Source: an uncultured Bacilli bacterium (lineage in GTDB: Bacteria; Bacillota_I; Bacilli_A; RF39; UBA660). From it: a stretch of 64,000 nucleotides of DNA. The notes beneath the pieces are model-generated. The model did not search any database. It was not told the DNA's origin and was given only the letters and a program-made list of their open reading frames with translations. The translations under genes and the position numbers were made by a program. The stretch is from NCBI GenBank assembly GCA_934101345.1, contig CAKOQV010000001.1, forward strand, positions 38,991 through 102,990. The letters run 5' to 3'. This document shows, piece by piece, positions 1,463 to 17,833 of this stretch (positions within the stretch are counted from its first letter, which is position 1; each line of letters begins with the position of its first letter).

Positions 1463-1496
1463 TTTCTATTGCTTAAATGAAAGGAGAAAATGATAT

Positions 1497-2757
1497 ATGA
1501 ATTTAAATTATGCAATATTTAGAAGTCAACAGATTATGACTTTAAATGATTTAGCACAAATCGGATCACACAATAAAAGAGAAAAACAGGCTTATAAATC
1601 TAATCCTGATATTAAATTAGAATTAAAAGATGATAACATTGAGTTAGTACCACTTGAATCTAAATATGTTAAAGGTTTTAAAGAATTAACTAAGGAATAT
1701 GAAAAAGAACACAATGAAAGACAAAAGACAAGAAAGAAAAAAGACTTATAGTCAAATGTTAAATAAATCAAAAAATGTTGTTGCAGATGAACTATTATTT
1801 ACTGCTACCCATAATTTTTTTGAGAATATGAATAAAGATGATATTATTGATTGGGCTAATACTTGTATGGAATTTGTTTATAAAGATTTAGGTTATACAA
1901 AATCACAAGTATTACACGCTACTATTCATTTAGATGAAGAAACACCACACTTGCATTGTGTAGTTATTCCACTAGTAAAAAAGTATGATAAAAGAACAAA
2001 TACAGAAAGATATACTATATCTAAAAAACAATATATAAGAGATAAATATCATTTATCAGAATTACAGGATAAATATCATAAAAGACTAACTGAAAAAGGA
2101 TATGATTTAGAACGTGGTATTAAAGGTAGTAATGCTAAACATCAAAAAACAAAAGAATTAAAGAAAACTACTAGATATTATGAAAACAAAGTTAAGGTAA
2201 TAAATACTAGAATAGATAATGCTATGAACGTTTTTGAAGAAAAGATGAAAACTACAAAAAATATACCTTTTAGCAAAACGCACGTATTAGTAGAAAAAGA
2301 TACTTTTGAAAGTATGAATAAAGTTATTAAAGAAAGTAAAAAAGCAATAGAGTTTCAACCTAAATTACAACAATTATTTAATGAAGTTGATAACTATACT
2401 AAAAGTCATCAAACTTTAGAAAAGGAAAACGAGGTACTAAATGCTAGAGTTAATAAACTTTCTAAAGATAACACTAAACTAAACACACGATTAGAAGCCA
2501 TTTTAAAGGTAATTAAAGAGTTTTTTAGGAATTTATTACAAATTGGTAATGAACTTGTAAAAGAAACTACTACAATTGAAATAAAAGACTATTATGATAG
2601 TAAAGAATTTAATTCAAATGATGTTTATGATATATCTAAAGGAACAACCAAAGAAGATGAATTATTTGATTATGCAGATATACCTGGTTATTACAAAACT
2701 AGAAAAAAATCATATTATCAGGAAAAAGATAAAGACGATTATGAAATAAGTCTATAA
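1497..2757 (+). pseudogene. mob: MobV-family (Mob_Pre) plasmid mobilization relaxase, split by a +/-1 frameshift in a poly-A run
   Basis: N-terminus MNLNYAIFRSQQIMTLNDLAQIGSHNKRE resembles MobM/Pre of pMV158/pUB110. The downstream frame carries the HxDExTPHxH signature (HLDEETPHLH). The two ORFs (1497-1751 and 1699-2757) overlap at the run gaaagaaaaaagac. A strong RBS aaaggagaaaatgatatATG precedes the first ORF. Confidence 0.75.
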
Positions 2758-2833
2758 AAAATGTAAAAATTTATAATTTTATTAAGAATATTCTCAAATC
2801 TGTGTTATAATTAAGTTAATGGAGGTGTTAGAA

Positions 2834-3544
2834 ATGGCTTTTAGTAATTTGAACGAGCAACGTGCAAAAGCAATGAAAGATTTAAGAGATTACATGGAAC
2901 TTAAATATGGTTATGGAAGTGCATATATGAGAGCTATCTCTAAATTAAGTGCAAATGATCAATATGATGAGAGAGGAATGTTAAAACCAGAATATACATT
3001 AACTTCTAAAGAAAGGGATGCTTTATTATTTTATGTTCCAGAAACTAGTAAATATTTAAAAGCATTTGATGATGTAAGATTTGAAACTACAAACAAAACA
3101 AAAAACGAACAAAATAAAGACCAAACATTAGATAAAAGATATCGTATGTTTTTAGAAAGCGTAAGAGAAGGAACAATGAAAATTGCGTCTAGTGCTGAAG
3201 TCCCTGAAGGAAATAGAGTTATTCCTTATGAAATAGTAGGAATTGAATTTGGTACTGATAGAATTATAGAAACATATGGAAGAGATGTCTTTGAAAGAGC
3301 ATTTAAAGAAATGTATGGGGAAAATAGTCTAAAAAAAGCCGAATATAATAAGGTATCACAAGATCTTTCCAAGACAGACAGAATGTTTGTGTACCTTATT
3401 CAAGAGGGGATTGCTACTTCACCTTTAATAGATTTACAAGTTTTACTTCATTTACTAGAAGAAAAAGGAATACCAACTTATATCGATTTTGAATCAAGAA
3501 CATTTTATTATAATGGTAGTCCTCAAAAAGGCAAAACTAAATAA
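2834..3544 (+). CDS. Hypothetical protein within the mobile-element remnant
   Basis: Long ORF. RBS GGAGGTG lies 6 nt before the ATG at 2834; the track start at 2819 overlaps this RBS. No recognisable motif. Confidence 0.5.
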   Translation: MAFSNLNEQRAKAMKDLRDYMELKYGYGSAYMRAISKLSANDQYDERGMLKPEYTLTSKERDALLFYVPETSKYLKAFDDVRFETTNKTKNEQNKDQTLDKRYRMFLESVREGTMKIASSAEVPEGNRVIPYEIVGIEFGTDRIIETYGRDVFERAFKEMYGENSLKKAEYNKVSQDLSKTDRMFVYLIQEGIATSPLIDLQVLLHLLEEKGIPTYIDFESRTFYYNGSPQKGKTK

Positions 3545-3561
3545 ATTAGTTTTGCCTTTTT
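3530..3561 (+). terminator. Rho-independent terminator
   Basis: Stem GGCAAAACTAA, loop ataaa, stem TTAGTTTTGCC, then TTTTT, spanning the stop codon. Confidence 0.7.
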
Positions 3562-3819
3562 ACTATAATTCCATTATAGTAACACACTACCAAGATGGAC
3601 AAGCCATCTAGGATAAAGTGTGCCAAAGGTGGTCCTTTGGAAACCAATTTAAGCATAGTCTTAGCAAGACATAAAGCCAAGTAAAATTAAGAAGTTTTAT
3701 AATATAAGTATACAACGAAAGATAAAAGTGTTATAATTTATATAAAGATACTAATTTAAAAAGAGATTATAATGTTTATAAATTTATATAAATTAAGATC
3801 TATTAAAAGGAGAAGAATT

Positions 3820-4350
3820 ATGGAAAAAAACAAAAAAATTTTATCAGGTATTTTTGCTATAATAATGGAAGAAAGTATGACTAGTGATGTATATGAAGAA
3901 AATGAAGTTACTAGATATCCACTCGATAGTGTTGAGCCTACGTTTGAAGAACCTGTTGTTCGTTATAAAACAGTTCAATCAAATATAGGAATAAATAATG
4001 ATTTGTTTGTTGTAACGTTTTATGAAAATTTGCCTGAAAATCAAAATCATTTAAGTTTTTCAGAAATAAGATTTGGCTGTTACCATAACAAATATGATAA
4101 TTCAAGAGAAGAATACAGTTTTAATGTAGCTATTAAAACTGATGAAAAAAGTGATCCAACTAATTACCTAAGTTTTTCTTTATCTTCAGATGATTATGAA
4201 AAAATAAAAAAAGTCAGTGAAAAATCAATAAAAAATCCGAATGAACAAATTTCTATTCGATCTTATCTTGATTTGTTAAATTCACTTAATATTGAACAAA
4301 TTAAAAATTTAAACGTTCTATATGGAACCAAGTCTAATTTAAAAAAATAG
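3820..4350 (+). CDS. Hypothetical protein
   Basis: ORF with RBS AAAGGAGAAG 5 nt before the ATG at 3820; the track start at 3772 is less likely. No motif recognised. Confidence 0.45.
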   Translation: MEKNKKILSGIFAIIMEESMTSDVYEENEVTRYPLDSVEPTFEEPVVRYKTVQSNIGINNDLFVVTFYENLPENQNHLSFSEIRFGCYHNKYDNSREEYSFNVAIKTDEKSDPTNYLSFSLSSDDYEKIKKVSEKSIKNPNEQISIRSYLDLLNSLNIEQIKNLNVLYGTKSNLKK

Positions 4351-4464
4351 ATTGTTTAATTATACATTAAGGTATTTTCATCTGAATATAAAAAAGTATA
4401 ATTACATATATTTTTATATCTAACTTTTTTAATCGTTTATATTTTTGCTAATTTTATTGAATAA

Positions 4465-4508
4465 GCAACATATTACAAACTAATTGTAAGTAATATTGTT
4501 GCCTTTTT
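4465..4508 (+). terminator. Rho-independent terminator
   Basis: Stem GCAACATATTAC, 13-nt loop, stem GTAATATTGTTGC (one bulge), then CTTTTT. Confidence 0.5.
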
Positions 4509-4626
4509 ATTTGTCTTACGACTTCATAAAAAGAAAAAAAGACTACCACTTTCATCAGCAAAGCTGACAAAACGTGATAGCTTTTTTTAGATAATCTAAT
4601 AACTAATCTAACGAAGAGTGAAAAGT

Positions 4627-5034
4627 TTATCTTCTTATTTTAGGTATTATATTTGCTACTCTTGTATTTGTTATATCAGTTAATACAATTATCAAAACTA
4701 ATACTATTGTTGATATTATATAGGCAATTAACATTGCTATATAATTTTGAGAAAACACACTTTCAAAAAATGTTACTATACATAAGATAATTGCAAATAT
4801 TCCAACAATAAGAAATATAGTGTCGCTATAATTATTTGCTAATCTTTTCTTTGGATCATTGTCGTTTTTCTCATTCCAAGTTCTACCTAAAATGCTCCAT
4901 TCTTTTGTAAATTTTGCATGTCCCCAACAAGTTAAACCTATAAAAAACCAACCAACAGATACAAGTTTATAGTTATCAACAATAGGTATTAATATAACCA
5001 TAATCGTAGAAAATCGTAGAACAAAGAAAACCAA
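4627..5034 (-). CDS. Small polytopic membrane protein, hypothetical; start uncertain (TTG at 5034 or ATG at 5001)
   Basis: ORF encodes about four hydrophobic helices. It lies 12 nt downstream of the 5046-5537 gene on the same strand. No convincing RBS. Confidence 0.4.
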   Translation of the reverse strand: MVFFVLRFSTIMVILIPIVDNYKLVSVGWFFIGLTCWGHAKFTKEWSILGRTWNEKNDNDPKKRLANNYSDTIFLIVGIFAIILCIVTFFESVFSQNYIAMLIAYIISTIVLVLIIVLTDITNTRVANIIPKIRR

Positions 5035-5045
5035 ATATTTGAATT

Positions 5046-5537
5046 TTATTTAAAAACATTTTTATTTTTTCTAGCATTTTTTTTCGCCTCCTCGAATCTA
5101 TTTTCATCTAAAATATCTATTATTTGTTTATTAGTTTCATTTTGATAAGCCAAATCTTGTATCGTATCAATTAATATGTCTTTTTTATCTTGTTCCATAT
5201 CTTCATTATTTCTAATTTGATTATTTAATGTTTCAATGATAACTTCATTATTCTTGATACTTGATGTTGCCATAACCCAAGCATCTTCTAATTCAGATAA
5301 TTTTATCTTATTAGATAAATTCTCAATGAATATTTCGTTAGAAAAATTAAATATTAGAAATGTTTTATCTTTAATAATAATTCTATTGGGTTCAATATAA
5401 GTTAAGTTAGTTTTATCTATTTTTCTAATATTACCATTTATAATAGTAGGTGCTACCTTAGAAAACTCACATATTAGTTCTAACTCCCTTTTTAACGATT
5501 CTTCAATAGGTAATTCTTCTTTAATAATATTTACCAT
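5046..5537 (-). CDS. Hypothetical protein
   Basis: ORF with RBS AAAGGATGG just before the ATG. No motif recognised. Confidence 0.5.
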   Translation of the reverse strand: MVNIIKEELPIEESLKRELELICEFSKVAPTIINGNIRKIDKTNLTYIEPNRIIIKDKTFLIFNFSNEIFIENLSNKIKLSELEDAWVMATSSIKNNEVIIETLNNQIRNNEDMEQDKKDILIDTIQDLAYQNETNKQIIDILDENRFEEAKKNARKNKNVFK

Positions 5538-5598
5538 AATACCATCCTTTCTTTCTAGGATAGTTTCTTAAACATAAAAAAACTAATCCATTTCTGAA

Positions 5599-6302
5599 TT
5601 AGTTATTTATTAAAGCTCGAAAAGTTCGAGCAGATTTCCTTATGGTACCACCAACCTTAATGATAGTATTTCTTATTGCTTGCCCTACCATATGATGAGT
5701 ATTACAAGCGTTTTTTTCTCTAGTAATATTATTGTTTTTAATTACTTCATCTGTTTGAGTAATTCTAAATAAATTTGCTGCTAATTCATTGCTACCCATA
5801 TGATCTAGTATTTCTTCTTTATCAGGGTCAATGCCTTTTCTTTTTGCAATGTCTTTTGCTGTTTCTCCACCATATAGTCCTTTATAACCATAGTCATTAA
5901 ACTTTGCATAATTATTTACACCTGCTTTTTTTGCAGTATCAAATAAGTTTGACCCAACGCGACAGATTTATGTCTTGCTGGGCTTGCATTTTGTACTATC
6001 AAATAACAAGCGTATCTACTTAATTTATAATCTATTACTTCTTTAGTAGCACCATTGGGCATTTCGATTGTTTTCCCCTTAACGGGAAAATGTTCTTCTA
6101 TATTAAAACCACTCAAATTACAGCTTATTTTTGCTTTGTTTATTACTTTAGCAAAGTGTTCCCATTTTGAATATTCTAAAGCACTCTTTAATTCTCTTGC
6201 TTCCCAATATTCATTTCCTAATTCATCAATATGTTTAATTTCTTCAAATGTTTTATCTTTATATTCTTCTAATTCATTCTTCTCTTTAACTACTGTATCC
6301 AT
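5599..6302 (-). pseudogene. dinD: DNA-damage-inducible protein D (DinD) homolog, interrupted by a frameshift in a 7-nt homopolymer
   Basis: The 5916-6302 ORF matches the DinD N-terminus (FEEIKH…GNEYWEARELKSALEYSKWEHFAKVINKAK…YKLSRYACYLIVQNASP…GQTY). The 5599-5799 region plus the intervening frame matches the DinD C-terminus (…YGYKGLYGGETAKDI…ILDHMGSNELAANLFRITQT…). The frames switch at ctgctttttttgcag (about 5925-5935). Confidence 0.7.
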
Positions 6303-7278: not shown

Positions 7279-7651
7279 TTTTCTTTCCTCCTTCTCTTAG
7301 AAGGCATACTATATTTTAATAGGGTGTCTTTAGCATACTTTCGCTATGCAGCCTTAGTTACTTATAAATGACACATTACTAAAATAGATAGTATCCGCTG
7401 CTAAGCAATAATATTATATAATTAATGATATGGTAAGTCAAGGAAAACTTGCTTGTTTTATTAATAAAATTATATTAAAAAGTGTAAAAAAAGTGTAAAG
7501 CGGTTAAAAATTGTCGAAATGTGTGTTATACTTGATATGATGATGATAGAAAGGGAGAGCTATCATTAAATTAGGAGGTGTTTGTTAAGAGGGGGAATTT
7601 CATTATGATGTTGCAAAATAATTATATATAATAAAATAAGAAAGGATGAAT

Positions 7652-9859
7652 ATGATGAAAAAGAAATTAATGAAAATGACTAAGATATTTTTAGATTTAA
7701 CTTTAATTTTTTCACAATTATCATCAGTTACTAAAGTATTCGCAGATGAGATAACTAGTAATGATACTGAAATTAAAGATGAAACTAAAGAACTAGTGGT
7801 TAATGGATATTTAATGAATACATTTGATAATTCTATAATAGATGAGACTGAAAATGATGGTGTATTTGAATATAATGTTACCGCTGGTAAATATAGACAG
7901 ATATTAACTATATCTGGCGATAAAATAGATGATACTAAGAGTTATAGTGTCAAAGTAAATGATAATGATAGTGTTGTTATGACTGGCGAGAAACTTAAGA
8001 ATGCTACTATAGAGGGTAGTGAGATAGACTTAACTAATTCATATAATACTATTATAGAATATACTGATAAGATTGTTATTACTGAGGTTAGTGAAGAGAC
8101 TGAAACCGAAGCTTTAACTTTAGAATATAAGGCTAAAATTACTTATGAAGTAGAAGGCAATAGCTTTGATGAGGCTTTAAATGGTCTTTACGAGGAATAT
8201 GTATTTGAAAATGGTAACTTTATAGTTAATGCTAAGGAATTGCCTTTATTACCTACTGTTCCTACTATGGAATACTTATATAGTTTATTAAATGAAAATA
8301 ATGGTATTAAACTTGAAGTATTTGATAAAGATAATAATCTTGTTACATTAGAAGAAGAAACACCTGTAGAAGGAGAAATTTCTAACAATGAAGAAACACC
8401 TGTAGAAGGAGATATTTCCGGTGAGGATACTCCAGTTAGTGAAACTCTTATTAAGAATGGATATACTTTAAAATTTACTAAAGGTTTAAGTGAAGCAATT
8501 TATAAAGTATATGTAATGGGAGATATTACTGATGATAGTATTTTTAGTGCTGATGATATGATGCCTACAATGGAAGGATACCTTAATGGTGAAATGATTC
8601 CTACAATGGACTTATATCTTACTAGTCATGAGACTGAAGGAAAAGATGAATATGAGGAAGATCCATTTGGAACTATTACTATTGAAGATATTATGACTAT
8701 TAATGGATATTTAAATCATTCTGAAAAAGAAAGAGAAAATACTGATTTAAATCTAGTATTTGGTAGTGATACTGATGAATTATATGTTGGCGATACTTTC
8801 AAAGTTAGTCTAGTTGTTAATTCTACAGATTTAGAAGACTATATCAATGGTATTGATGGTTTAGTTACTTATAGTGATAATCTTAAACTAATGAATGTAC
8901 TATTTAATGAGAATTTAATTGGTACTTATAATGAAGATGGTAGATTTGTAGGAGCAGGTACTGAGCTTACAAATGGTACTACTGTTATAACATTTGAATT
9001 TATGGCTATTAATGATGGTGAAGGTACAGTTACTTTAAATGGTAGTGTTGCTAATGATATGATTATTAATGAATTTGAAGAAGTTAGTGTTAGCGTTAAT
9101 ATTACTAGAAAGAGTTCAATTAATAATTTACATTCATTAAATGCTAGTGTTGGTACATTTGATACTGTATTTGATAAAGATGTTACTGTATATACTTTAA
9201 CTGTTCCATATGATACTAAAGAAGTTATATTATCTGGTTCTTTAGAGGATACTTTATCAACAGTAGATGGTTTATTTAAATATGAACTTACTGAAGATAA
9301 GACTACTGCAATTATAACTGTAACTGCTGAAGATGGTAGTACTAAGGTTTATACTGTATATATAATAAAAGAAAAACCGCCAGTAGTTCCTACACCAGTA
9401 GTATACTATTATTCTTCAAATAATTATTTAAAAACACTTGAGGCTAAGGGTTATGAAATTAAATTTGATAGAGATATTTTAGAGTATGAACTAAATGTTA
9501 ATAATGATGTTAAATCTTTAGATATTACTGCTATTGCAGAAGACTCTAGATCTAGAGTGGAAATTACTGGTAATGAAAACTTTAAAACTGGTAAAAACAC
9601 TGTTATTATTTCTGTTAAAGCAGAAAATGGTGATGTTAGAGAGTACAAGTTAATTGTAAATAGAAAGAGCATTACTACTACTACTTTAACTGAAGAAGAA
9701 GAATCTGGTAGCACTGCTGAAAAAGTTGTTATTATAATACTTATAGTACTTGTAGTATTAGGACTTCTATATCTTATCTTTAAAAAAGATGATGATGCTA
9801 CTCCTACTGTTAAACCAGAAAATAAGAAAAATAATACAAAAAATAATAGTAAGAAATAA
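7652..9859 (+). CDS. Large cell-surface protein with a signal peptide, a cohesin-like segment, two cadherin-like beta-sandwich repeats and a C-terminal TM anchor
   Basis: N-terminal signal MMKKKLMKMTKIFLDLTLIFSQLSSVTKVFA. Two segments (about aa 490-580 and 600-680) share the …Y.LTV….K.v.i….ed…V.i…..TA.ITVTAEDGST..Y.V.I… pattern of cadherin-like domains common in Clostridia. A cohesin-like region is DTFKVSLVVNSTDLEDYINGIDGLVTYSDN. The C-terminus has a hydrophobic helix plus a K-rich tail. A tandem 12-aa repeat EETPVEGEIS occurs near 8340-8440. Start is placed at the ATG at 7652 after AAAGGA. Confidence 0.6.
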   Translation: MMKKKLMKMTKIFLDLTLIFSQLSSVTKVFADEITSNDTEIKDETKELVVNGYLMNTFDNSIIDETENDGVFEYNVTAGKYRQILTISGDKIDDTKSYSVKVNDNDSVVMTGEKLKNATIEGSEIDLTNSYNTIIEYTDKIVITEVSEETETEALTLEYKAKITYEVEGNSFDEALNGLYEEYVFENGNFIVNAKELPLLPTVPTMEYLYSLLNENNGIKLEVFDKDNNLVTLEEETPVEGEISNNEETPVEGDISGEDTPVSETLIKNGYTLKFTKGLSEAIYKVYVMGDITDDSIFSADDMMPTMEGYLNGEMIPTMDLYLTSHETEGKDEYEEDPFGTITIEDIMTINGYLNHSEKERENTDLNLVFGSDTDELYVGDTFKVSLVVNSTDLEDYINGIDGLVTYSDNLKLMNVLFNENLIGTYNEDGRFVGAGTELTNGTTVITFEFMAINDGEGTVTLNGSVANDMIINEFEEVSVSVNITRKSSINNLHSLNASVGTFDTVFDKDVTVYTLTVPYDTKEVILSGSLEDTLSTVDGLFKYELTEDKTTAIITVTAEDGSTKVYTVYIIKEKPPVVPTPVVYYYSSNNYLKTLEAKGYEIKFDRDILEYELNVNNDVKSLDITAIAEDSRSRVEITGNENFKTGKNTVIISVKAENGDVREYKLIVNRKSITTTTLTEEEESGSTAEKVVIIILIVLVVLGLLYLIFKKDDDATPTVKPENKKNNTKNNSKK

Positions 9860-9865
9860 ATAAAG

Positions 9866-9900
9866 AAAAAGAAAGAAATATCTTTCTTTTTTTTCTTTTT
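9866..9900 (+). terminator. Rho-independent terminator
   Basis: GAAAGA / aata / TCTTTC extended by A/T pairs, followed by a long T run. Confidence 0.6.
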
Positions 9901-9938
9901 TTTGCTATAATGAAATAGATAATAGGGAGAGTGTCTAT

Positions 9939-10277
9939 ATGAATAGAAAGGGTCAAGCTTTAGTAGAATTTGTTCTTGTATTACCAGTATTTATATTGAT
10001 ATTGTTTGCTATTGTTGATTTTGGTACTATTTTAAGTAAAAAAAATGAACTAGAAAATGATAGTATGGATATTGTTTCACTTGTTAAGAATGGTACTACT
10101 ATAGAGGATATTAATAAGAAATATACTGATTTAGATATAACTATGAAAGAGGATAATCAATATACTAATATAACTATTACTGAGAATGTTAAAGTTATAA
10201 CTCCAGGACTTAATTTGATACTTGGTAATCCATATAAGATTACTGTAGAAAGGATAATACCTAATGCTAACACTTAA
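9939..10277 (+). CDS. tadE: TadE-like pseudopilin (Flp-pilus assembly)
   Basis: N-terminus MNRKGQALVEFVLVLPVFILILFAIVDFG shows the TadE-like G/QALVEF prepilin-type leader followed by a hydrophobic segment. RBS GGGAGAG 7 nt upstream. A TATAAT box at 9906-9911. Confidence 0.7.
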   Translation: MNRKGQALVEFVLVLPVFILILFAIVDFGTILSKKNELENDSMDIVSLVKNGTTIEDINKKYTDLDITMKEDNQYTNITITENVKVITPGLNLILGNPYKITVERIIPNANT

Positions 10278-10653
10278 TAATAAGGGTCAAAGTTTAGTCC
10301 TATTTGTAGTTATTATGCCAATTATATTACTTATGTTTGTACTTGTATATGATATTGGTAATGCTATGTATGAAAAGAATAAACTTTCTAATGTTAGTTA
10401 TATGGTAATAGACTATGCTCTTGATAATATTGATAAAGTAGATGAGAATGATTTAATTGATTTGATAGATAAGAATACTAATAATCTTAGTAGTATGTCT
10501 GTACTTATAGATAATGGTAAGGTTAATGTAACTCTTACTAAAACTATAAAAGGAACTTTCGGTAAAGTATTTAATTTTGATTTAATTGAGGCTAAAAGTG
10601 AATATACTGGTTATATGGATAATGGTAATAAAAGAATAGAGAAGGTAGGTTGA
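10264..10653 (+). CDS. TadE/TadG-like pseudopilin
   Basis: N-terminus MLTLNNKGQSLVLFVVIMPIILLMFVLVYDIG matches the TadE-like domain pattern. Its start overlaps the previous gene, suggesting translational coupling. Confidence 0.6.
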   Translation: MLTLNNKGQSLVLFVVIMPIILLMFVLVYDIGNAMYEKNKLSNVSYMVIDYALDNIDKVDENDLIDLIDKNTNNLSSMSVLIDNGKVNVTLTKTIKGTFGKVFNFDLIEAKSEYTGYMDNGNKRIEKVG

Positions 10654-10657
10654 TACT

Positions 10658-11425
10658 ATGAATGGTAAAATAATAAGTGTATCTTCAGTAAAGGGTGGAG
10701 TTGGTAAGACAACAATACTTCTTAATTTAGCAGGTATTTATTGTGAACTTGGTAAAAGAGTATTAATTATTGATATGGATTTGTTTTCTGGTGGCATAGC
10801 GATATCTCTTGATATTAAGAATACCAAGGATATATTTATGTTAGTGGATAGTATGGCTAATAATAGATTTACAGAACTTAGTAAGTATGTTACTTCTTAT
10901 AATTCTAATATTGATGTATTAGCTGCTCCTAGAGACCCTAGAGAGGCAATGAAAGTTGATAGTAGGTATATTCCTCTTATATTTGATGCTGCTAAAAAGG
11001 AATATGATGTAGTACTTGTGGATACTTCTCATGTACTTAATGATATTAATTTGACTATTCTTGATTATTCTTATATGTCTTTATTTATTGTTACTAATGA
11101 TTTAGTGGATTTAAAGAATATGAAGAGTTTACTTAGTGTCTTCATTGATACTGATAAGAAGAATTATTTAATTTGTTTAAATAGTTCTAGAGATACTGGT
11201 AGGGATTATATGAGTATGTATGATATTAGGGCTACGATAGATAGTAATATTGATTATACTATATCTAGTAATTATTATATAAAGAATATTGATAAGTATG
11301 TTATGAGTGGTGAGATACTTACTTTAAATAAGAAGATTAATACTTTTCATCCTAAAGATGTTGCTAATATGAAGAAAATGGCACTTGATTTGATTGATGA
11401 TAGACATATTAAGGAGGGAAAGTAA
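10658..11425 (+). CDS. cpaE: CpaE/TadZ-like ParA/MinD-family ATPase of the Tad locus
   Basis: Deviant Walker A SSVKGGVGKTT; sits between pseudopilin and cpaF genes as in Tad operons. Confidence 0.7.
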   Translation: MNGKIISVSSVKGGVGKTTILLNLAGIYCELGKRVLIIDMDLFSGGIAISLDIKNTKDIFMLVDSMANNRFTELSKYVTSYNSNIDVLAAPRDPREAMKVDSRYIPLIFDAAKKEYDVVLVDTSHVLNDINLTILDYSYMSLFIVTNDLVDLKNMKSLLSVFIDTDKKNYLICLNSSRDTGRDYMSMYDIRATIDSNIDYTISSNYYIKNIDKYVMSGEILTLNKKINTFHPKDVANMKKMALDLIDDRHIKEGK

Positions 11426-11426
11426 G

Positions 11427-12749
11427 ATGGCTAAGAAGACATTAACTGAGGCTTTTGATGTTAAGCCTAAAGAAACTCCTAAAAATGGTTTAAAAGATTA
11501 TGATATATTTGGTGATAAGGGACTACTTGATAGTCTTAGAACGAAGATAGTTCAGAACTTAATTGAAGAGAATATTCCTGATGATGGTTTACTTGAGGAT
11601 TATATTAATAATGAGATTGATAATACTTTAAGTGGATATGATTTGGGTACTTTAGAGAGAGGACATATTTTTAATTTAATTCAGAATGAAATAATGGGAT
11701 ATGGTCCCATTACTCCTTTGTTACAAGATAATGCTATTACTGAGATAATGGTAAATGCTCCTAATGAGATATATGTTGAAATAGATGGTAAGATAGCTAA
11801 GGATGAAACAGTATCGTTTATTAATGATAAGCATATTATTAGAACTATTCAGAGAATAGTACAACCTCTTGGTAGAACTATTGATGCTGCTAATCCGATG
11901 GTTGATGCTAGACTTAGAGATGGTTCAAGACTTAATGCAGTTATTCCACCACTTAGTTTGAAAGGACCTGTTCTTACAATAAGAAAGTTTAATAAGAAAT
12001 TAGAATCTATTGATGATTTATTAAGAGGTGGTTCTCTTACTGTTAATATGGCAAGATTTCTTGAGGCTGCTGTTCAAGCTAAACTTAATATTATTATATC
12101 TGGTGGTACTGGTACTGGTAAAACAACACTTCTTAATATATTATCTGGATTTCTAGGAGAAGATGAGAGAATTATTACTATTGAGGATGCTGCAGAACTT
12201 AAACTTCATCAGAAACATGTTATTTCGTTAGAGACAAGGCTTATTAATTACGAGGGTGAAGGAGAGGTTACTATTAGAGATTTAGTTAGAAACTCTCTTA
12301 GAATGAGACCAGATCGTATTATAGTAGGTGAAGTAAGAGGTAAAGAGGCTTTTGATATGATGCAGGCTATGAATACTGGTCATGAGGGTTCTCTTACTAC
12401 ATTACATGCTAACAATTCTGTTGATACAATTAATAGACTTGAGACAATGATTTTAATGAATGAGATGGAAATACCAGTGTCCGCAGTTAGAGGATATATT
12501 GCTAATGCTATTGATTTAATTGTTCAAATAGATAGATTATCTGATGGTAAAAGAAAGATTACTTCTATTAGTGAGATAGATGGTATGAAAGATGGAGAGA
12601 TTGTTCTTAAAGAGATATTTTCATTTAAGCAAGTTGGAGTGGCTAATGATGGAAGTGTAATGGGAGAGTTTGGTGTTTATAAGAGAAAACCTAGAGTTTA
12701 TGATAAAATTACAAGAAAAGGTATAGATATTAAAGATATTTTTAACTAA
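11427..12749 (+). CDS. cpaF: CpaF/TadA secretion ATPase (VirB11/GspE superfamily)
   Basis: Walker [16 protein letters not shown], Walker B/Asp box [10 protein letters not shown], His box TLHAN. RBS GGAGGG 8 nt before the ATG at 11427; the track start at 11394 is less likely. Confidence 0.85.
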
Positions 12750-12769
12750 AGAAGAAAGGGATGATAATT

Positions 12770-13765
12770 ATGGAAACAATGTTTATTATACAGGGTATTT
12801 TACTTGTTATACTTTTGATAATTATCATTATTTTATTTAGAAATGTACTAGGAGATAAAAAAGCGGCGAGAATTAAGTATTATTCTTTGGAACCAATAAA
12901 AAAAGAAGAATTATCTTTTAGTGATAAATTTGTTAGTGGATATATATCATTTGTAAGCAAGTTTAGGAAAATTGTTAAAAAAAGTAATTATTTTACTAAG
13001 AGAAGTAAGAAGTATGAAAGATATATTAAATATAAAGATAAGGATAGAATACAAACTGTTGATTTTATTACTAATAAGTTTATTATATCGATAGTATTTA
13101 TTATTTTAACTACTATATCACAAATATTTACTACTAATTATTTCTCTTTATTTGGATATATTATTAATTATTTTATTGGGTATTATTTGCTTGATATATT
13201 GTTATTTTTGAATTATAAGAGAAAGACTAGAAATATAGAGAATGATTTACTTAGGGCAATAATTATTATGAATAATTGTTTTAAGGCAGGTAAGAGTACA
13301 CTTCAAGCATTACAGACTGCTAGCGTGGAACTTCCTTATCCTCTTGGAGATGAATTTAAGAAGATGTATTTGGATATGAAATATGGATTATCTGTTGATA
13401 CTGTTTTTGAGAGATTTGCTAGAAGAGTAAAGTTACCTGAAGCTGTTTATGTTTCTACATCTCTTACTGTTCTTAACAAGACTGGTGGTAATATAGTAGA
13501 GGTATTTTCTTCTATTGAGAGAACTTTATTTGATAAGAAGAAGCTAAAGGAAGAAATGAAGAATATTAGTTCTGCTCCTAAGATTGTAGTTATTATACTT
13601 AGTATTGTACCAGTGTTTTTTGTAGGGATAGTTTACTTACTTAATCCAACATACTTTAATCCTTTATTTAGTTCTACTCTTGGGTATATTATAATTGCTA
13701 TTATTGTGATTATGTTTATTATATATTTAATAACTTTATTAAGAACACTAAAGGTGGATGAGTAA
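12770..13765 (+). CDS. tadB: TadB (type II secretion F-domain inner-membrane protein)
   Basis: T2SSF-type pattern (…KAG.S…AL…) with TM helices; position after cpaF. ATG at 12770 after GAAAGGG. Confidence 0.7.
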   Translation: METMFIIQGILLVILLIIIIILFRNVLGDKKAARIKYYSLEPIKKEELSFSDKFVSGYISFVSKFRKIVKKSNYFTKRSKKYERYIKYKDKDRIQTVDFITNKFIISIVFIILTTISQIFTTNYFSLFGYIINYFIGYYLLDILLFLNYKRKTRNIENDLLRAIIIMNNCFKAGKSTLQALQTASVELPYPLGDEFKKMYLDMKYGLSVDTVFERFARRVKLPEAVYVSTSLTVLNKTGGNIVEVFSSIERTLFDKKKLKEEMKNISSAPKIVVIILSIVPVFFVGIVYLLNPTYFNPLFSSTLGYIIIAIIVIMFIIYLITLLRTLKVDE

Positions 13766-14483
13766 TATGAAAAAGAAAATTAAAAAAAAGAATGATAATT
13801 CTTTAAGAAATTTATATGGCAAGAAAGTACTTAATAGAATTGATGAAAAAATTAATTTACTTGGAGTATCTTCAAGAGTTAGTACTTTAACTTTTTTGAA
13901 TATTAGGTTAATTACTATGATAATTTTATCTTTTCTTATATTTATTTCTTTTGATTATGGTTATATTTATATGTTAATTTTTATGATAATATATTATTTT
14001 GCATTTGAAAAAATATTTTTAGATAAGAAGATAAAAAAGAGAAAAGAAAAGCTTAATAGTGAAGCTATATATTTCTTTGAGGTTTTGACTTTGTCACTTC
14101 AGACGGGTAGAAATTTGAATGAGGCTATATCTGTTACTATTAATAGTGTTGATGGAGAATTGTCTTTAGAGTTTAAAGAAGCTTTAAGACAAACTAAGTT
14201 TGGCAAGAGTTTGAATGAGAGTTTAAGTGATATTCAGAGGTTTATACCTTCGGATAGTATTAATAATATTATTTTGTCTCTTACTCAGTCTAATATGTAT
14301 GGTAGTAGTATTATTGATACTATGCATAGTCAGATTGATTATTTGAGACAAAGAAGAATATTAGAAGTTAAAGCTAGAATTAGTAAGGTACCTATTAAGA
14401 TAAGTGTTATATCAGTATTTTTCTTTATACCACTTATATTACTTATTATATTAGGACCGGTAATACTTGGTTATATTAGTTAA
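13758..14483 (+). CDS. tadC: TadC (type II secretion F-domain inner-membrane protein)
   Basis: Second T2SSF-like membrane protein overlapping tadB, as in Tad loci. Confidence 0.65.
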   Translation: MSNMKKKIKKKNDNSLRNLYGKKVLNRIDEKINLLGVSSRVSTLTFLNIRLITMIILSFLIFISFDYGYIYMLIFMIIYYFAFEKIFLDKKIKKRKEKLNSEAIYFFEVLTLSLQTGRNLNEAISVTINSVDGELSLEFKEALRQTKFGKSLNESLSDIQRFIPSDSINNIILSLTQSNMYGSSIIDTMHSQIDYLRQRRILEVKARISKVPIKISVISVFFFIPLILLIILGPVILGYIS

Positions 14484-14559: not shown

Positions 14560-15279
14560 ATGTCAGGACATAGTAAATGGTCTACGATTAAAAGAAAAAA
14601 AGGGGCAATTGATAGTGAAAGAAGTAAAGTTTTTCAGAAACTTGCTAAAGAACTTTATGTAGCAGCAAAGAGTGGTGATCCTAATCCTGAAAATAATCCG
14701 GGACTAAGAATGGTTATAGAAAAAGCTAAGGGTGAGAATATGCCTAAGGCTAATATTGAATCTGCGATTAATAAAGCTAAGAATGCTGGAACTGGTGAGA
14801 ATTATGAATCTGTTAGATATGAGGGATATGGTCCTTCTGGTGTGGCTATTATGATTGATTGTCTTACTGATAATAAGAATAGAACTGCTGGGTTTGTAAG
14901 GAGTACTTTAACTAAAAGAGGGGGTAATTTAGGTACTGATGGTTCTGTTAGTTATTTGTTTGAAAGAAAAGGTGTTTTAGTACTTGAGAAGGTATATGAT
15001 GAAGATAAACTTATGGAAGATATTCTTTCTTTAGATATACTTGATTTTATTACTGAAGATGATAGTTATGTTATTTATACTGATTCTAATAGTTTTATAG
15101 AGGTTAAAGATGCTTTAACTAATATGGGTTATGATAAATTTATTGTTAGTGAAGTTACTTTTGTACCAAGCAATTATATGGAACTTGATGAAGAAAGTAC
15201 GGAGAAGGTTATTAATTTGATTGATGCTTTGAATGATTTGGATGATGTTCAGGCTGTATATCATAATTTAGATATTTAA
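14560..15279 (+). CDS. yebC: YebC/PmpR-family transcriptional regulator
   Basis: MSGHSKWSTIKRKKGAIDSERSKVFQKLAKEL… is the canonical family N-terminus. RBS GAGGAGG upstream. Confidence 0.9.
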   Translation: MSGHSKWSTIKRKKGAIDSERSKVFQKLAKELYVAAKSGDPNPENNPGLRMVIEKAKGENMPKANIESAINKAKNAGTGENYESVRYEGYGPSGVAIMIDCLTDNKNRTAGFVRSTLTKRGGNLGTDGSVSYLFERKGVLVLEKVYDEDKLMEDILSLDILDFITEDDSYVIYTDSNSFIEVKDALTNMGYDKFIVSEVTFVPSNYMELDEESTEKVINLIDALNDLDDVQAVYHNLDI

Positions 15280-15292: not shown

Positions 15293-15365
15293 AACACTCT
15301 AAGTCTATGTCTTAGAGTGTTATTTTGAGCCTTAGGTCTCAAAATAATATATCTACTTATTTATT
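15293..15365. repeat. Intergenic structured repeat element, copy B-R (reverse orientation)
   Basis: 15295-15344 is the near-exact reverse complement of 6597-6647, i.e. copy A SL1 and SL2. Its SL1 equivalent is TTTTGAG / ccttaggt / CTCAAAA at 15323-15344, a compensatory variant. The 17-mer end is degenerate. Confidence 0.65.
15295..15326 (+). terminator. yebC terminator; also the SL2 hairpin of repeat copy B-R
   Basis: CACTCTAAG / tctatgt / CTTAGAGTG, then TTATTTTG. Confidence 0.6.
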
Positions 15366-15474: not shown

Positions 15475-15567
15475 AAAATAAAGTGTAGATAATTTTATTA
15501 AAATTATTGATAATAAAACTAAAATATGGTAATATAATAGTAGGTTAATAGATAGAGGTGATAAGAA

Positions 15568-16161
15568 ATGAAATTTAGTAAAATGATTTTTGTTTTGACA
15601 ATTGCCGCTAGTGCTATATTTGTTTTTATGATTGGTAGTTCTTATGCTTATTATACAGCTACGTCTACTGATATTAATGTTACTACTGGTAATACTTCTG
15701 ATGGTGTTTCAGTAATATTTACTGATAATAATTATGTTAATATTACTACAGGTGTACCTATCGATGACAATATGGTTGATAATTATGTTGATGGTAATAA
15801 ATTTTCAATTATTCCTAATGTTAATACTTTAAATGGATATGATGCTTTTATTACTATAGCTTTAATTAATGTTAATATAGATGATAGTTTGAAAATAAAT
15901 TCTTTTAAATATAAACTTATTTGTATTGATGATAATTCTGATGTTGTTAAAAGTACTACTGGTAATGGAACATCACTTGTTAGTGGTACTGATGTAGTTT
16001 TAAGTAAATTTAACACTACTGATAATTCATTCGATATTAATACTAATTATCAATGTACTTTTAAAGTATGGATATCTAATAGTGGAAATAATCAAAATGA
16101 GCTTATGAACAAGAAATTTTCTGCACTATTAAAAGTAAATTCTATAATGAGAAAGCAGTGA
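15568..16161 (+). CDS. TasA/camelysin-like secreted protein with a SipW-cognate-type signal peptide
   Basis: Hydrophobic N-terminus ends in …IGSSYAYYTATSTD, which resembles the …GGGT(W/F)A(A/F)F(N/S)D cleavage-region motif of TasA/CalY. About 190 aa, T/N-rich beta-type composition. RBS GAGGTGA upstream. Confidence 0.5.
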   Translation: MKFSKMIFVLTIAASAIFVFMIGSSYAYYTATSTDINVTTGNTSDGVSVIFTDNNYVNITTGVPIDDNMVDNYVDGNKFSIIPNVNTLNGYDAFITIALINVNIDDSLKINSFKYKLICIDDNSDVVKSTTGNGTSLVSGTDVVLSKFNTTDNSFDINTNYQCTFKVWISNSGNNQNELMNKKFSALLKVNSIMRKQ

Positions 16162-16166
16162 TATTT

Positions 16167-16715
16167 ATGAAAAAAAAGAAGATAATATTATCTATAGCTT
16201 TTGTTTTGTTACTTGTTATAATTGTTTTTGGATGTACTTATGCTTTTTTTGTTAATCGTACTGGTGAAAGAAGTATTACTAATACTTCTGGCAAAACAGA
16301 TATTGTTTATAGTATAACTGAAAATATTACAGGTGTTCATCTTACACCTTCTGATGCCGCTAGTGGAGGACTTAATTCAGTAGCAGTTGCAAGACTTAAT
16401 ACTAATAGCGTACCAACTGCATTTAATATTTATATTACTCCTACTAGTATTGATGGTCTTAATGTTGCTGCTTTAAAGTGGGAAGTTATTGGTACTAATA
16501 ATGATGAAGTTGTATATTCTAATAATGGAGATTTTTCTACTGCTAGTAATGATACTCCAATTACTATTGTAAATAAATATGAACTTAAAAGTACAGATAC
16601 TACATTTAATATTTATATATGGCTTGATGCTAGTTTAATTGATACATCGCTTGATAATAGTAGGTTTGCTGCTAAAATAAGTGCTGATACCGTTCAAATT
16701 ACTGGTAATTATTAA
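16167..16715 (+). CDS. TasA/camelysin-like secreted protein with a SipW-cognate-type signal peptide (paralog of the previous gene)
   Basis: N-terminus MKKKKIILSIAFVLLLVIIVFGCTYAFFVNRTGE. The start is ATG at 16167; the track GTG at 16158 overlaps the upstream stop. Confidence 0.5.
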   Translation: MKKKKIILSIAFVLLLVIIVFGCTYAFFVNRTGERSITNTSGKTDIVYSITENITGVHLTPSDAASGGLNSVAVARLNTNSVPTAFNIYITPTSIDGLNVAALKWEVIGTNNDEVVYSNNGDFSTASNDTPITIVNKYELKSTDTTFNIYIWLDASLIDTSLDNSRFAAKISADTVQITGNY

Positions 16716-16789
16716 AGAAAATAAGTAAACAAGTAGTTTATTTACTTTCTTTTTTTCTTTATGTGTAGTACAATTATAATGGTGATAAT

Positions 16790-17833
16790 ATGAATAACAC
16801 AGATATTATTCTAAGTATTAATGATATTAATGATATTGATAAAATTGGAAATAATACTAAATATATTAATATTTCTATTGATAGTTTTAGTAGAGATGTT
16901 ATAGATTATTTTTTGCGATGTGGTAAAGATTTTTTATATACTGATTCTATTAATAATAAAAATGGATTTATATATGCTACTTATGATATGTTTAAAAATG
17001 GTGAAAAGATTATAGATAATATTATTAGTAATATGCCTAGTAATTTAAATGATTTAGATAAGGTTAGATATTTATATATTTCTTTAGGTAAGATACTTAG
17101 CGCGGATATTAATACTATGGATAATAAGAATGAAAAGATATCTTTTAGTAGTGTTAGTGTTATTAATAATATTTGGGGGTCTATTACTAGTGGTAAGACT
17201 ACTAGTACTTGTATATCTAAGTTACTTATGTATTTATGTTCTAGAGTAGGTATTAAGTCAGAACTTATTAATAGTGATATTAATGGTAATATAGGTAATA
17301 AAATATATATTGATGATAGCTTTTTAATCGTGGATTTATTTAATGATTTATATAATATACAAGGTGGTTTTAGTACTAAGTATTTTGATAAGTATAATGA
17401 TAATAAAGATATAGATAGAAAGATATTTTATATAAAGAATAGTTATACTAATGAGATTATTAATAATAGACTTAGAGGTCTTGATTATACTAAAGATAAT
17501 ATGCTTAGTGATATACTTGAAGTACTTGAAAGAAGTATTAATATTAGTGATGTTGGTGTTATTGAATTAGCAAAGATATGTAAAGATATTTTTGATAAAT
17601 ATACTCCTAATTATGATATAAGAATTAATAATTTATTTTTACTTGATAGTGATGAAATTAAAGAACATTTTATTGTTATTAGTTATGATAATAATTTTTA
17701 TAGTTATAATTATAATAAGAGATGTTTTATTAAGATTCCTTATGATGTCATTACTAAGAATATTAAAAATAATAAGATTGGTATATATGAAGGAGAGAAC
17801 TTCTATTGTAAGGAAAGTAGGTTAGTATTATGA
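16790..17833 (+). CDS. Hypothetical protein
   Basis: 347-aa ORF with no recognised motif. Confidence 0.4.
   Translation: MNNTDIILSINDINDIDKIGNNTKYINISIDSFSRDVIDYFLRCGKDFLYTDSINNKNGFIYATYDMFKNGEKIIDNIISNMPSNLNDLDKVRYLYISLGKILSADINTMDNKNEKISFSSVSVINNIWGSITSGKTTSTCISKLLMYLCSRVGIKSELINSDINGNIGNKIYIDDSFLIVDLFNDLYNIQGGFSTKYFDKYNDNKDIDRKIFYIKNSYTNEIINNRLRGLDYTKDNMLSDILEVLERSINISDVGVIELAKICKDIFDKYTPNYDIRINNLFLLDSDEIKEHFIVISYDNNFYSYNYNKRCFIKIPYDVITKNIKNNKIGIYEGENFYCKESRLVL

What the first reader, a model, noticed from the sequence alone, without database searches (positions are those of the whole stretch)
15568..16715. Three proteins with TasA/CalY-type (SipW-cognate) signal peptides, but no sipW in the window
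Two tandem paralogs of about 190 aa, plus the 685-aa surface protein at 31998-34052, have a hydrophobic signal ending in G-[ST]-[TY]-[FY]-A-[FVY]-[FY]-[TV] (SSYAYYTATSTD, GCTYAFFVNRTGE, GSTFAVFTASAE). This mirrors the GGGT(W/F)A(A/F)F(N/S)D region of B. subtilis TasA and B. cereus CalY, which the archaeal-type signal peptidase SipW cleaves. TasA family proteins form extracellular fibres. This would give a fibre or matrix system encoded next to a Tad pilus operon and a pilC-pilD pair. The dedicated peptidase must be elsewhere in the genome, or these proteins use another peptidase.
Basis: partly seen in the sequence, partly recalled or inferred. Interest (0 to 1): 0.65.

Follow-up and report, generated by a model that had tools for sequence, protein, structure and literature searches.

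The report
TasA-like secreted proteins, SipW-type signals
Two tandem genes, and the start of a third large surface-protein gene, in this uncultured gut bacterium encode exported beta-sandwich proteins of a large unnamed branch of the TasA/camelysin biofilm-fibre family; related genomes encode this branch next to a SipW-type signal peptidase, but none lies in or near this window.

Summary
After an N-terminal hydrophobic stretch, the motif G-x-[ST]-[YF]-A-x-[FY] occurs in exactly three ORFs: P1 15568-16161, P2 16158/16167-16715 and P3 31998-34052. That is 3 against 0.006 expected by chance.

P1 and P2 are distant paralogs in a large family with no Pfam or NCBIfam model of its own (2370 cluster representatives). 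None of the three proteins reaches the curated cut-offs for TIGR04088 or Peptidase_M73. The family nevertheless connects to them:
- 33 of 108 relatives match TIGR04088 at E <= 0.1.
- Two relatives (P0263, P0231) pass the Peptidase_M73 cut-off.
- P0231 aligns with TasA (BLASTP E 2e-6).
- In 4 of 6 independent SipW-type peptidase loci from related genomes, the peptidase sits among family members. One of these loci holds the P1 and P2 orthologues.

AlphaFold models show an N-terminal helix, a conserved low-confidence linker and a jelly-roll sandwich. That fold is compatible with TasA but not specific to it. P3 shares only its first ~50 residues with the family.

No S26 peptidase lies in the window or in the ~10 kb of a same-species contig beyond its right end. 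Whether the genome has sipW was not determined.

Verdict: a divergent new member of a known kind. The signal type is well supported. Fibre formation and SipW dependence are inferred.

The parts
15568..16161 (+). P1, 197 aa: Sec-type signal (aa 1-27), conserved linker (aa 28-45), jelly-roll beta-sandwich (aa 47-196)
   Evidence: ORF. RBS agaggtga at 15555-15562. 90 homologues, none with a Pfam domain apart from two apparent gene fusions. AF2 pLDDT 80.7. Family HMM E 2e-57.
15568..15648 (+). P1 signal peptide. Predicted cleavage after S-Y-A27, before YYTATSTD.
   Evidence: G23, Y26, A27, Y28 and Y29 are invariant in A1. Small residues at -3/-1 (S, A) are read from the sequence. Analogy to TasA, whose mature chain starts at A28 after GGGTWA.
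16167..16715 (+). P2, 183 aa (185 aa if the GTG at 16158 is used): paralog of P1 with the same architecture
   Evidence: AF2 pLDDT 83.5. Family HMM E 3e-71.
16167..16244 (+). P2 signal peptide. Predicted cleavage after T-Y-A, before FFVNRTGE.
   Evidence: Y28 and A29 are (near-)invariant in A2. The cleavage site itself is inferred.
31998..34052 (+). P3, 684 aa surface protein: SipW-class-like signal, ~130-aa N-domain, three Listeria-Bacteroides (Flg_new) repeats, Cys-rich region, SH3_3
   Evidence: Pfam Flg_new 1.8e-45 and SH3_3 3.7e-4. TIGR04088 14.6/16.8 bits, below the 19-bit cut-off. N-domain is homologous to the ~159-aa family that follows pilD in relatives. hhalign of its N-terminal 51 columns against the family: probability 91.9%.
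31998..32087 (+). P3 signal peptide. Predicted cleavage after T-F-A, before VFTASAE.
   Evidence: Motif hit. The cleavage site is inferred.
29848..31982 (+). pilC (T2SSF x2, 29848-31209) and pilD (A24 prepilin peptidase, 31218-31982). They end 6-15 bp before P3 and are probably co-transcribed with it.
   Evidence: Pfam. The order pilC-pilD-[~159-aa protein with an S/T-T-F-A-Y N-terminus] was read in full in L033. Homologues of that ~159-aa protein sit at the matching position in 12 relatives.
9939..14483 (+). Tad-type operon upstream: TadE-like x2, TadZ/ParA-like, TadA ATPase, TadB, TadC. It is separated from P1 by yebC (14560-15279) and a terminator-like hairpin.
   Evidence: Pfam. Synteny Tad-yebC-P1-P2 is conserved in L001-L005 and L055-L058. 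Hairpin read at 15293-15325.
16790..17833 (+). 347-aa protein with no signal peptide and no family hit, syntenic with the P1-P2 cluster. Possible accessory factor (speculative).
   Evidence: No Pfam or NCBIfam hit. It lies downstream of P2 in L001-L005 and L055-L058. Its homologue lies directly upstream of the P1 orthologue in the sipW operon of L039.

Best explanation
P1 and P2 are exported subunits of a divergent, so far unnamed branch of the TasA/camelysin/BsaA superfamily.

Proposed mechanism:
1. Each is made with a Sec-type signal peptide whose c-region is the family motif G-x-[ST]-[YF]-A.
2. An S26 signal peptidase cuts after the Ala. In relatives this is a SipW-type (archaeal/ER-type) enzyme encoded inside the gene cluster. 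In this genome it would be a sipW copy elsewhere or the housekeeping SPase I.
3. Cleavage exposes a conserved, intrinsically unstructured N-terminal segment followed by a jelly-roll beta-sandwich.
4. By analogy with TasA, BsaA and archaeal AbpA, that segment most likely serves as a donor strand. It would link subunits (P1/P2 homo- or heteropolymers) into surface or matrix fibres.

P3 carries the same kind of signal and first strand on a different N-domain, fused to wall-binding and adhesin-type repeats. It is probably a cell-surface adhesin or anchor processed in the same way.

Shown: the motif, family membership, the link to TIGR04088 and PF12389 through intermediate sequences, SipW adjacency in relatives, and the beta-sandwich fold.
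Inferred: the cleavage site, the peptidase used in this genome, donor-strand polymerisation, and any coupling to the neighbouring Tad/PilCD genes.
For: - Motif enrichment: 3 N-terminal hits against 0.006 expected.
- The motif is conserved in homologues.
- The P1+P2 profile finds 2370 representatives, 575 at E <= 1e-10, many as the N-terminal domain of 370-720 aa surface proteins.
- 33 of 108 match TIGR04088, and TapA, BsaA and TasA models are also hit.
- PF12389 is passed by P0263 (32.6 bits) and P0231 (25.2 bits) against a cut-off of 22.5. P0231 also aligns with TasA (BLASTP E 2e-6) and carries the P1-type C-terminal motif.
- hhalign of the family against TasA aligns the signal plus 30-35 mature residues, including the S-G-x-L-D-[LI] strand.
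- A peptidase confirmed as TIGR02228 archaeal-type SPase I (96.9 bits against a 51.85 cut-off) lies directly after the P1 and P2 orthologues and two more paralogs in L039.
- Three further independent SipW loci carry 1-7 family members. Two L047 paralogs pass TIGR04088.
- AF2 models show a helix, a low-confidence linker and a beta-sandwich.
- In P1, residues 21-30 are among the most conserved (0.85 mean identity against 0.62 for the domain) yet have the lowest pLDDT (44 and 35). That fits a processing site plus a strand that only folds in a complex.
- Donor-strand filament subunits (7ueg AbpA, 7pnb, 9h8b) appear among the fold matches.
- Literature: the TasA donor strand is residues 28-38, directly after the SipW site (PMC9674648). 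BsaA uses a donor strand and sits in a sipW operon (PMC11580942). AbpA is processed without a dedicated SipW (PMC9245690).
Against: - P1 and P2 themselves give no hit to TIGR04088, PF12389 or any PDB sequence.
- hhalign probability against TasA is only 5-16% and is limited to the N-terminus.
- Foldseek matches are generic jelly rolls with TM 0.3-0.4, and TasA itself is absent from the top 50.
- Only 1 of 38 species loci anchored on P1 has a SipW within 10 kb.
- No S26 peptidase was found in the 64-kb window or in the ~10 kb of a same-species contig (L059) beyond its right end.
- In the P2 model the motif is part of a continuous helix, which would also fit an uncleaved anchor.
- No multimer prediction or experiment supports polymerisation.
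Confidence: 0.6

Rival explanations
1. Ordinary secreted or wall-associated beta-sandwich proteins (adhesin- or carbohydrate-binding-like). They would have a normal Sec signal cut by the housekeeping SPase I. The conserved motif would be only a family-specific c-region and first strand, with no dedicated peptidase and no fibre formation.
For: - Residues at -3/-1 (S/T and A) fit any type I signal peptidase (read from the sequence).
- No sipW in the window or in 37 of 38 P1-anchored loci.
- Top fold matches are CBM15, CBM6, lectins and GOLD domains.
- Many family members are N-terminal domains of LRR, GDSL-lipase, dockerin or Laminin_G proteins.
- Archaeal AbpA is cut by the generic peptidase (PMC9245690).
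Against: - Invariance of the motif and the following ~15 residues across a family of more than 2000 clusters is unusual for a plain c-region.
- Repeated physical clustering with SipW-type peptidases in relatives.
- Intermediate sequences link the family to TasA, BsaA and camelysin models.
Confidence: 0.25
2. Uncleaved signal-anchor proteins. The N-terminal helix would stay in the membrane and display the beta-sandwich on the cell surface. The motif would sit at the membrane-wall interface.
For: - AF2 models a continuous helix through the motif in P2 (residues 3-35, pLDDT 85-90).
- N-termini resemble FliL-type single-pass anchors in NCBIfam scans.
- BsaA oligomers are membrane-anchored in C. 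perfringens (PMC11580942).
Against: - AF2 routinely draws signal peptides as helices.
- In P1 the motif region has pLDDT below 50.
- Relatives pass a model built for cleaved SipW substrates and lie next to the peptidase.
Confidence: 0.08
3. Non-canonical pilin-like subunits that are processed by the adjacent PilD and assembled by the Tad/PilC machinery.
For: - Conserved neighbourhood: Tad-yebC-P1-P2 and pilC-pilD-P3.
- The window has no Flp or type IV major pilin gene and no second assembly ATPase.
- The helix-plus-beta-domain shape is superficially pilin-like.
Against: - There is no prepilin site. The Gly lies after, not before, the hydrophobic segment, and there is no Glu at +5.
- yebC and a terminator-like hairpin separate P1 from the Tad operon.
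- Family members cluster with SipW, a Sec-pathway peptidase.
Confidence: 0.04

Closest known systems
B. subtilis TasA / B. cereus CalY (Pfam PF12389 Peptidase_M73; tapA-sipW-tasA operon)
   Same: - K-rich n-region, h-region, then G-x-T-[WFY]-A cut site.
- Conserved mature N-terminus with an S-G-x-L-D-[LI]-like strand in the P2 subfamily.
- Jelly-roll sandwich of similar size.
- Tandem paralogs.
- Relatives are encoded beside a SipW-type peptidase.
   Different: - No direct PF12389 hit for P1 or P2.
- Sequence identity is undetectable beyond ~60 residues.
- No sipW and no recognisable tapA at this locus.
- The hosts are small-genome uncultured gut Bacilli (one relative's complete MAG chromosome is 1.46 Mb).
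C. perfringens BsaA/BsaB/BsaC (sipW-bsaA-bsaB-bsaC; TIGR04090)
   Same: - Remote TasA homologues with SipW-type signals and several paralogs per operon.
- Proposed donor-strand polymerisation.
- Secretion of operon products depends partly on type IV pilus proteins (PilC, PilD and others; PMC11580942). That echoes the pilC-pilD-P3 and Tad-P1-P2 neighbourhoods here.
   Different: - Only 3 of 108 family representatives touch TIGR04090.
- The N-E-K isopeptide triad was not shown here, and window P2 has T-G-E where its subfamily has T-N-E.
- No VWA protein and no sortase at this locus.
Archaeal bundling pilin AbpA (PDB 7UEG)
   Same: - Jelly-roll subunit of about 180 aa with an N-terminal donor strand.
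- Processed without a dedicated peptidase gene nearby.
- Appears among Foldseek matches for both models (ranks 19 and 27).
   Different: The match is weak (E 5e-3 to 8e-3, TM 0.30-0.35) and no better than matches to CBMs and viral jelly rolls. No sequence similarity.
TIGR04088 SipW-dependent-type signal peptide proteins
   Same: The consensus around the cut site is shared. 33 of 108 family representatives match the model, and SipW-adjacent paralogs in L047 pass the cut-off.
   Different: P1 and P2 score nothing and P3 is sub-threshold. The model is insensitive to this branch: the SipW-adjacent P1 and P2 orthologues in L039 also score nothing.

Membership tests
TIGR04088 (SipW-dependent-type signal peptide) | HMM score at or above the curated cut-off (19 bits) | tested here: not met
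   P1 and P2: no hit. P3: 14.6 bits, or 16.8 bits on the N-domain alone. 1 of 31 P1 homologues hits at E 0.11. In the wider family 33 of 108 match at E <= 0.1. L047 paralogs score 19.7 and 20.5 bits and pass.
TIGR04088 (SipW-dependent-type signal peptide) | Encoded near, or in a genome with, a SipW-type (S26B) signal peptidase | tested here: inconclusive
   None in the window, or in the ~10 kb of a same-species contig beyond its right end. Present inside family clusters in L039, L044-48 and L049-50. The rest of this genome could not be read.
TasA/camelysin (Pfam PF12389 Peptidase_M73) | HMM score at or above the gathering threshold (22.5 bits) | tested here: not met
   P1 and P2: no hit at E <= 1. 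Family members P0263 (32.6 bits) and P0231 (25.2 bits) pass. P0256 scores 20.3 bits. P0223 aligns over the whole domain at E 0.054.
TasA/camelysin (Pfam PF12389 Peptidase_M73) | Jelly-roll beta-sandwich fold | tested here: met
   AF2 models: P1 strands 47-196 (pLDDT 80.7) and P2 strands 49-180 (pLDDT 83.5). Foldseek returns jelly-roll and CBM folds and AbpA. The fold is not specific to TasA.
TasA/camelysin (Pfam PF12389 Peptidase_M73) | N-terminal donor strand that polymerises subunits into fibres | not testable with these tools
   Indirect evidence only. The segment after the cut site is conserved but has low confidence in the monomer model. No multimer prediction was possible.
Type IV prepilin / Flp (PilD or TadV substrates) | Short leader ending in Gly before the hydrophobic segment, with Glu at +5 (or G/xxxxEY) | tested here: not met
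   In P1-P3 the Gly follows the hydrophobic stretch and there is no Glu at +5. The only prepilin-like N-terminus in the window is the TadE-like gene at 9939.
SipW / archaeal-type signal peptidase I (TIGR02228) in the window | An ORF with the S26 catalytic Ser motif (SMxP) and homology to SipW or SipS | tested here: not met
   No motif in six frames. No phmmer hit in window ORFs. Positive control: the L039 ORF scores 96.9 bits on TIGR02228.

The most novel reading that the evidence does not exclude
In these small-genome, wall-bearing gut Bacilli, TasA-like subunits may have become clients of type IV filament machinery. Three observations point that way:
- The unit pilC-pilD-[small SipW-signal-type protein] recurs in relatives.
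- P1-P2 sit beside a Tad operon that has no Flp pilin.
- No major pilin or second assembly ATPase is present nearby.

Under this reading a Tad/PilCD apparatus would push or assemble TasA-like fibres through the peptidoglycan. That would generalise the T4P-dependent secretion seen for the C. perfringens bsa operon, possibly without any SipW.
Probability: 0.12. Interest if true: 0.7.

Novelty: new member of a known kind. Interest (0 to 1): 0.42.

Why it matters
TasA-type fibres are the protein scaffold of Bacillus biofilms, and homologues have recently been found in Clostridia and archaea. This finding shows a large unannotated branch of that superfamily, with more than 2000 sequence clusters and no Pfam or NCBIfam model. 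The branch is common in prevalent but uncultured human- and animal-gut Bacilli (the CAG:302, CAG:321 and CAG:914 type; the 'RF39-like' label is from my own recollection of GTDB, not tested here). The proteins occur as stand-alone subunits and as the N-terminal module of adhesin-like proteins.

The result supplies concrete candidates for the adhesive or matrix fibres of organisms whose surface biology is unknown. It gives a profile that could annotate thousands of 'hypothetical' proteins. It also shows that the curated SipW-cognate model misses bona fide SipW-adjacent members.

The recurrent neighbourhood with pilC-pilD and Tad genes offers a second, independent system in which to test the recent proposal that type IV pilus machinery helps export TasA-like matrix proteins in Gram-positive bacteria.

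Tried and rejected
- **Direct searches with P1 and P2.** Pfam, NCBIfam and PDB sequence searches, and PDB searches with the A2 and A4 profiles, gave only chance hits such as the FliL anchor and the sodium-channel beta subunit TM segment.
- **Linking a sipW gene to this genome.** None of these routes settled it:
  - Comparing WGS prefixes of NCBI-sourced SipW contigs (JBJFGT01, CANRCE01, Hadza contigs) with the 38 P1-bearing assemblies and with CAYBGM01 found no match.
  - Extending the right end by ~10 kb (L059) showed polysaccharide genes, AlaRS and RNase J.
  - RNase J flanks the sipW cluster in L047, so 80 metagenome loci anchored on AlaRS were scanned. No sipW cluster follows it in this clade. 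One strain of a sister species (L063) has a different protein, a polytopic membrane protein fused to an S26B domain.
- **P3 N-domain as a family member.** Rejected at domain level. hhalign aligns only the first 26-51 columns and the family HMMs do not hit P3.
- **Prepilin or Flp processing of P1-P3.** Rejected because the motif is wrong.
- **The 145-aa gene of relatives as a hidden SipW.** Rejected. It is another family paralog.
Full report
**Setting.** The window has 21-31% G+C and strong coding bias to the + strand. Close matches are uncultured gut 'Bacilli bacterium' MAGs, also deposited as 'uncultured Tenericutes', Clostridium sp. CAG:302 and CAG:914, and Firmicutes CAG:321. The same species occurs in several human-gut assemblies, for example GCA_964308795.1. 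A relative has a closed 1.46-Mb chromosome.

**Observation.** The three ORFs exist as described. A regex for the motif finds four hits in six frames against 0.22 expected. Three lie 13-48 residues into real ORFs, against 0.006 expected. Each follows a Lys-rich n-region and a 17-20 residue hydrophobic stretch. P1 has a good RBS and its own promoter-like sites. It is separated from yebC by a terminator-like hairpin. P2 probably starts at ATG 16167 rather than the overlapping GTG. No S26 signal-peptidase motif or homologue is present in the window.

**What P1 and P2 are.**
- Neither protein matches Pfam, NCBIfam or any PDB sequence.
- Each has a narrow set of close homologues, 90 and 35 clusters, none named and none with a Pfam domain apart from two apparent gene fusions.
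- They are 22% identical to each other and align consistently (A3).
- Relatives of the CAG:302 type carry four tandem paralogs (198, 183, 145 and ~492 aa) at the same place. All have the x-[ST]-Y-A-[WY] motif. The 492-aa protein's N-domain matches the A3 profile at 99% hhalign probability.
- A profile of A3 against 1.84 billion representatives gives 2370 hits at E <= 1e-3 and 575 at E <= 1e-10. About a fifth of the top 148 are 370-720 aa proteins that carry this domain at the N-terminus.
- The motif G-x-[TS]-[YF]-[AS]-[YFW]-[FYL] is present in 139 of 148, at mean position 23.

**Link to TasA and SipW.**
- Of 108 representatives, 33 match TIGR04088 (best E 4.3e-6), 6 match the TapA model, 3 the BsaA model, 1 the TasA model and 5 Pfam Peptidase_M73.
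- P0263 (32.6 bits) and P0231 (25.2 bits) exceed the Pfam cut-off of 22.5. P0223 aligns over the whole 196-position model at E 0.054.
- P0231 also aligns with TasA by BLASTP (E 2e-6). It carries the P1-type C-terminal motif, so it bridges the two families.
The mature chain starts at A28, right after GGGTWA. The 27-residue signal peptide rests on memory alone.
- hhalign of A3 and A4 against TasA aligns 42-61 N-terminal columns, signal plus first strands, but at only 5-16% probability.

**Gene neighbourhood.**
- Among 38 species loci anchored on P1, one (L039) has a 214-aa peptidase directly after the P1 orthologue, the P2 orthologue and two more paralogs. It lies next to a homologue of the window's 347-aa gene.
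- That peptidase scores 96.9 bits on TIGR02228 (archaeal-type SPase I, cut-off 51.85) and 100 bits on the SipW model.
- Using it as a query gave 1380 homologues. Of six independent loci examined, four have family members beside the peptidase: L039 has 4, L044-46 have 4-5, L047-48 have 6-7 and L049-50 have 1.
- Two L047 paralogs pass TIGR04088. The SipW-adjacent P1 and P2 orthologues of L039 score nothing. Failure of the curated model is therefore not evidence against SipW association in this branch.

**Structure.**
- AF2 gives confident models (pLDDT 80.7 and 83.5). P1 has a helix at 3-23, a sub-50 pLDDT segment at 23-42 and a beta-sandwich at 47-196. P2 has a helix at 3-35 and a sandwich at 49-180.
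- In P1 the low-confidence block at residues 21-30 is among the most conserved parts of the protein (0.85 mean identity against 0.62 for the domain).
- Foldseek against the PDB returns generic jelly rolls (CBMs, lectins, GOLD, viral capsid P-domains, tailspike domains) at E ~1e-3 and TM 0.3-0.4.
- The TasA homologue AbpA (7UEG) ranks 19 and 27. Other archaeal filament subunits (7PNB, 9H8B) also appear. TasA itself is not in the top 50.

**P3.**
- Its architecture is signal, a ~130-aa N-domain, three Flg_new repeats, a Cys-rich region and SH3_3.
- TIGR04088 is sub-threshold at 14.6 and 16.8 bits.
- The family HMMs do not hit P3. hhalign aligns only the first 26-51 columns, at 91.9% probability against A4.
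- Its N-domain is homologous to a ~159-aa protein family with an S/T-T-F-A-Y N-terminus found in 12 relatives. In L033, read in full, that gene directly follows pilC-pilD; in the other relatives the homologue sits at the matching position.
- In the window, pilD ends 6-15 bp before P3.

**Is there a sipW in this genome?** This was not determined.
- The window has no sipW. Neither does the ~10 kb of a same-species contig (L059) beyond its right end.
- None of the 80 AlaRS-anchored loci from this clade has a sipW cluster. One strain of a sister species (L063) has a different protein, a membrane protein fused to an S26B domain.
- Attempts to match SipW-bearing contigs to P1-bearing assemblies failed.

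**Mechanism.**
- Most likely: Sec export, cleavage after the conserved Ala by an S26 peptidase (SipW elsewhere in the genome, or the generic enzyme as in archaeal AbpA, PMC9245690), then exposure of a conserved N-terminal strand. That strand would polymerise the sandwich domains by donor-strand complementation, as in TasA (PMC9674648) and BsaA (PMC11580942).
- The cleavage site, the peptidase and the polymerisation are all inferred.
- Rivals: plain secreted adhesin- or CBM-like proteins cut by SPase I; uncleaved signal anchors; non-canonical pilins. The last is made unlikely by the absence of a prepilin site.

**Neighbourhood with type IV machinery.**
- Tad-yebC-P1-P2 and pilC-pilD-P3 are conserved.
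- The window has no Flp pilin, no major pilin and no second assembly ATPase.
- In C. perfringens, secretion of sipW-operon products depends on PilA3, PilB2, PilC1, PilD and PilMNO (PMC11580942).
- A functional coupling here is speculative but testable.

**Verdict.** The 'fibre system' and the peptidase question remain open. This is a divergent, unannotated branch of a known superfamily: of moderate interest, mainly for annotation and for the possible link to type IV machinery.

Noticed in passing
window 29848-34052; L033 6046-8736; post-pilD homologues in L024, L027, L029-L032, L034, L036-L038, L043: The order pilC-pilD-[~159-aa protein with an S/T-T-F-A-Y SipW-like N-terminus] was read in full in L033. 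Homologues of that ~159-aa protein sit at the matching position in 12 relatives in all. In the window the third gene has gained three Flg_new repeats, a Cys-rich region and an SH3_3 domain (P3).
   Followed up: partly
window 7646-14483 and whole window: The Tad operon has two TadE-like genes, TadZ, TadA, TadB and TadC, preceded by a 737-aa cadherin-like surface protein, but no detectable Flp pilin. No type IV major pilin and no second T2SSE ATPase for the pilC-pilD pair were found anywhere in the 64 kb.
   Followed up: partly
window 16790-17833; L039 506-1579: A 347-aa protein with no signal peptide and no Pfam or NCBIfam hit is syntenic with the P1-P2 cluster in the window's clade. Its homologue lies directly upstream of the P1 orthologue in the sipW operon of L039. 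It may be an accessory factor.
   Followed up: no
L001-L004, L007-L009 at 10001-13100, versus window 15568-16790: CAG:302-type relatives have four tandem paralogs (198, 183, 145 and ~492-537 aa). The window's species has only the first two, with a 75-bp gap before the next gene. This is fixed in all four same-species contigs examined (L055-L058).
   Followed up: partly
L063 1034-2865: One strain of a sister species (AlaRS 91% identical) encodes a 391-aa polytopic membrane protein with a C-terminal SipW/archaeal-type S26B peptidase domain (ASGSMEPV...HRIV...TKGDANN). It directly follows a 217-aa secreted protein with an S-I-G-F-A-S-F-A-S N-terminus. The pair sits in a variable region upstream of AlaRS.
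   Followed up: partly
L052 10001-12766: In another Bacilli contig, sipW is followed by a 559-aa membrane protein and a genuine type IV pilin (MNNKGFTLIELL). This is another physical association of SipW with type IV pilus components.
   Followed up: no
L010 19859-20584 and L001 11556-13034: The region C-terminal to the N-domain in the P3 orthologue of L010 (…LMNDRKGSSSTGINAGNIRYYGASPNNYVYFNC…) is the same domain as the C-terminal part of the 492-aa P1/P2 paralog of L001. This suggests domain shuffling between the two loci.
   Followed up: no
window 1-6300: The left end looks like a mobile element, judged by eye from translations (a Mob/Rep-like 352-aa protein and small phage-like ORFs). The 128-aa ORF at 5916-6302 corresponds to a Bro-N-family gene next to rpsD in same-species contigs (L055, L056, L058). 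One same-species contig (L057) has a different gene there, so the element boundary may be variable.
   Followed up: no
window 29356-29802 (- strand): A Gly/Met-rich YqfQ-like protein (148 aa) is conserved immediately upstream of pilC and divergent from it, both in the window and in the relatives L005 and L033.
   Followed up: no
window 16158-16170: The database cluster (P0091) uses the GTG at 16158 as the start of P2, overlapping P1's stop. Homologues are 183 aa and begin M-[DNK]-K-K-K, so ATG 16167 is the more likely start.
   Followed up: yes
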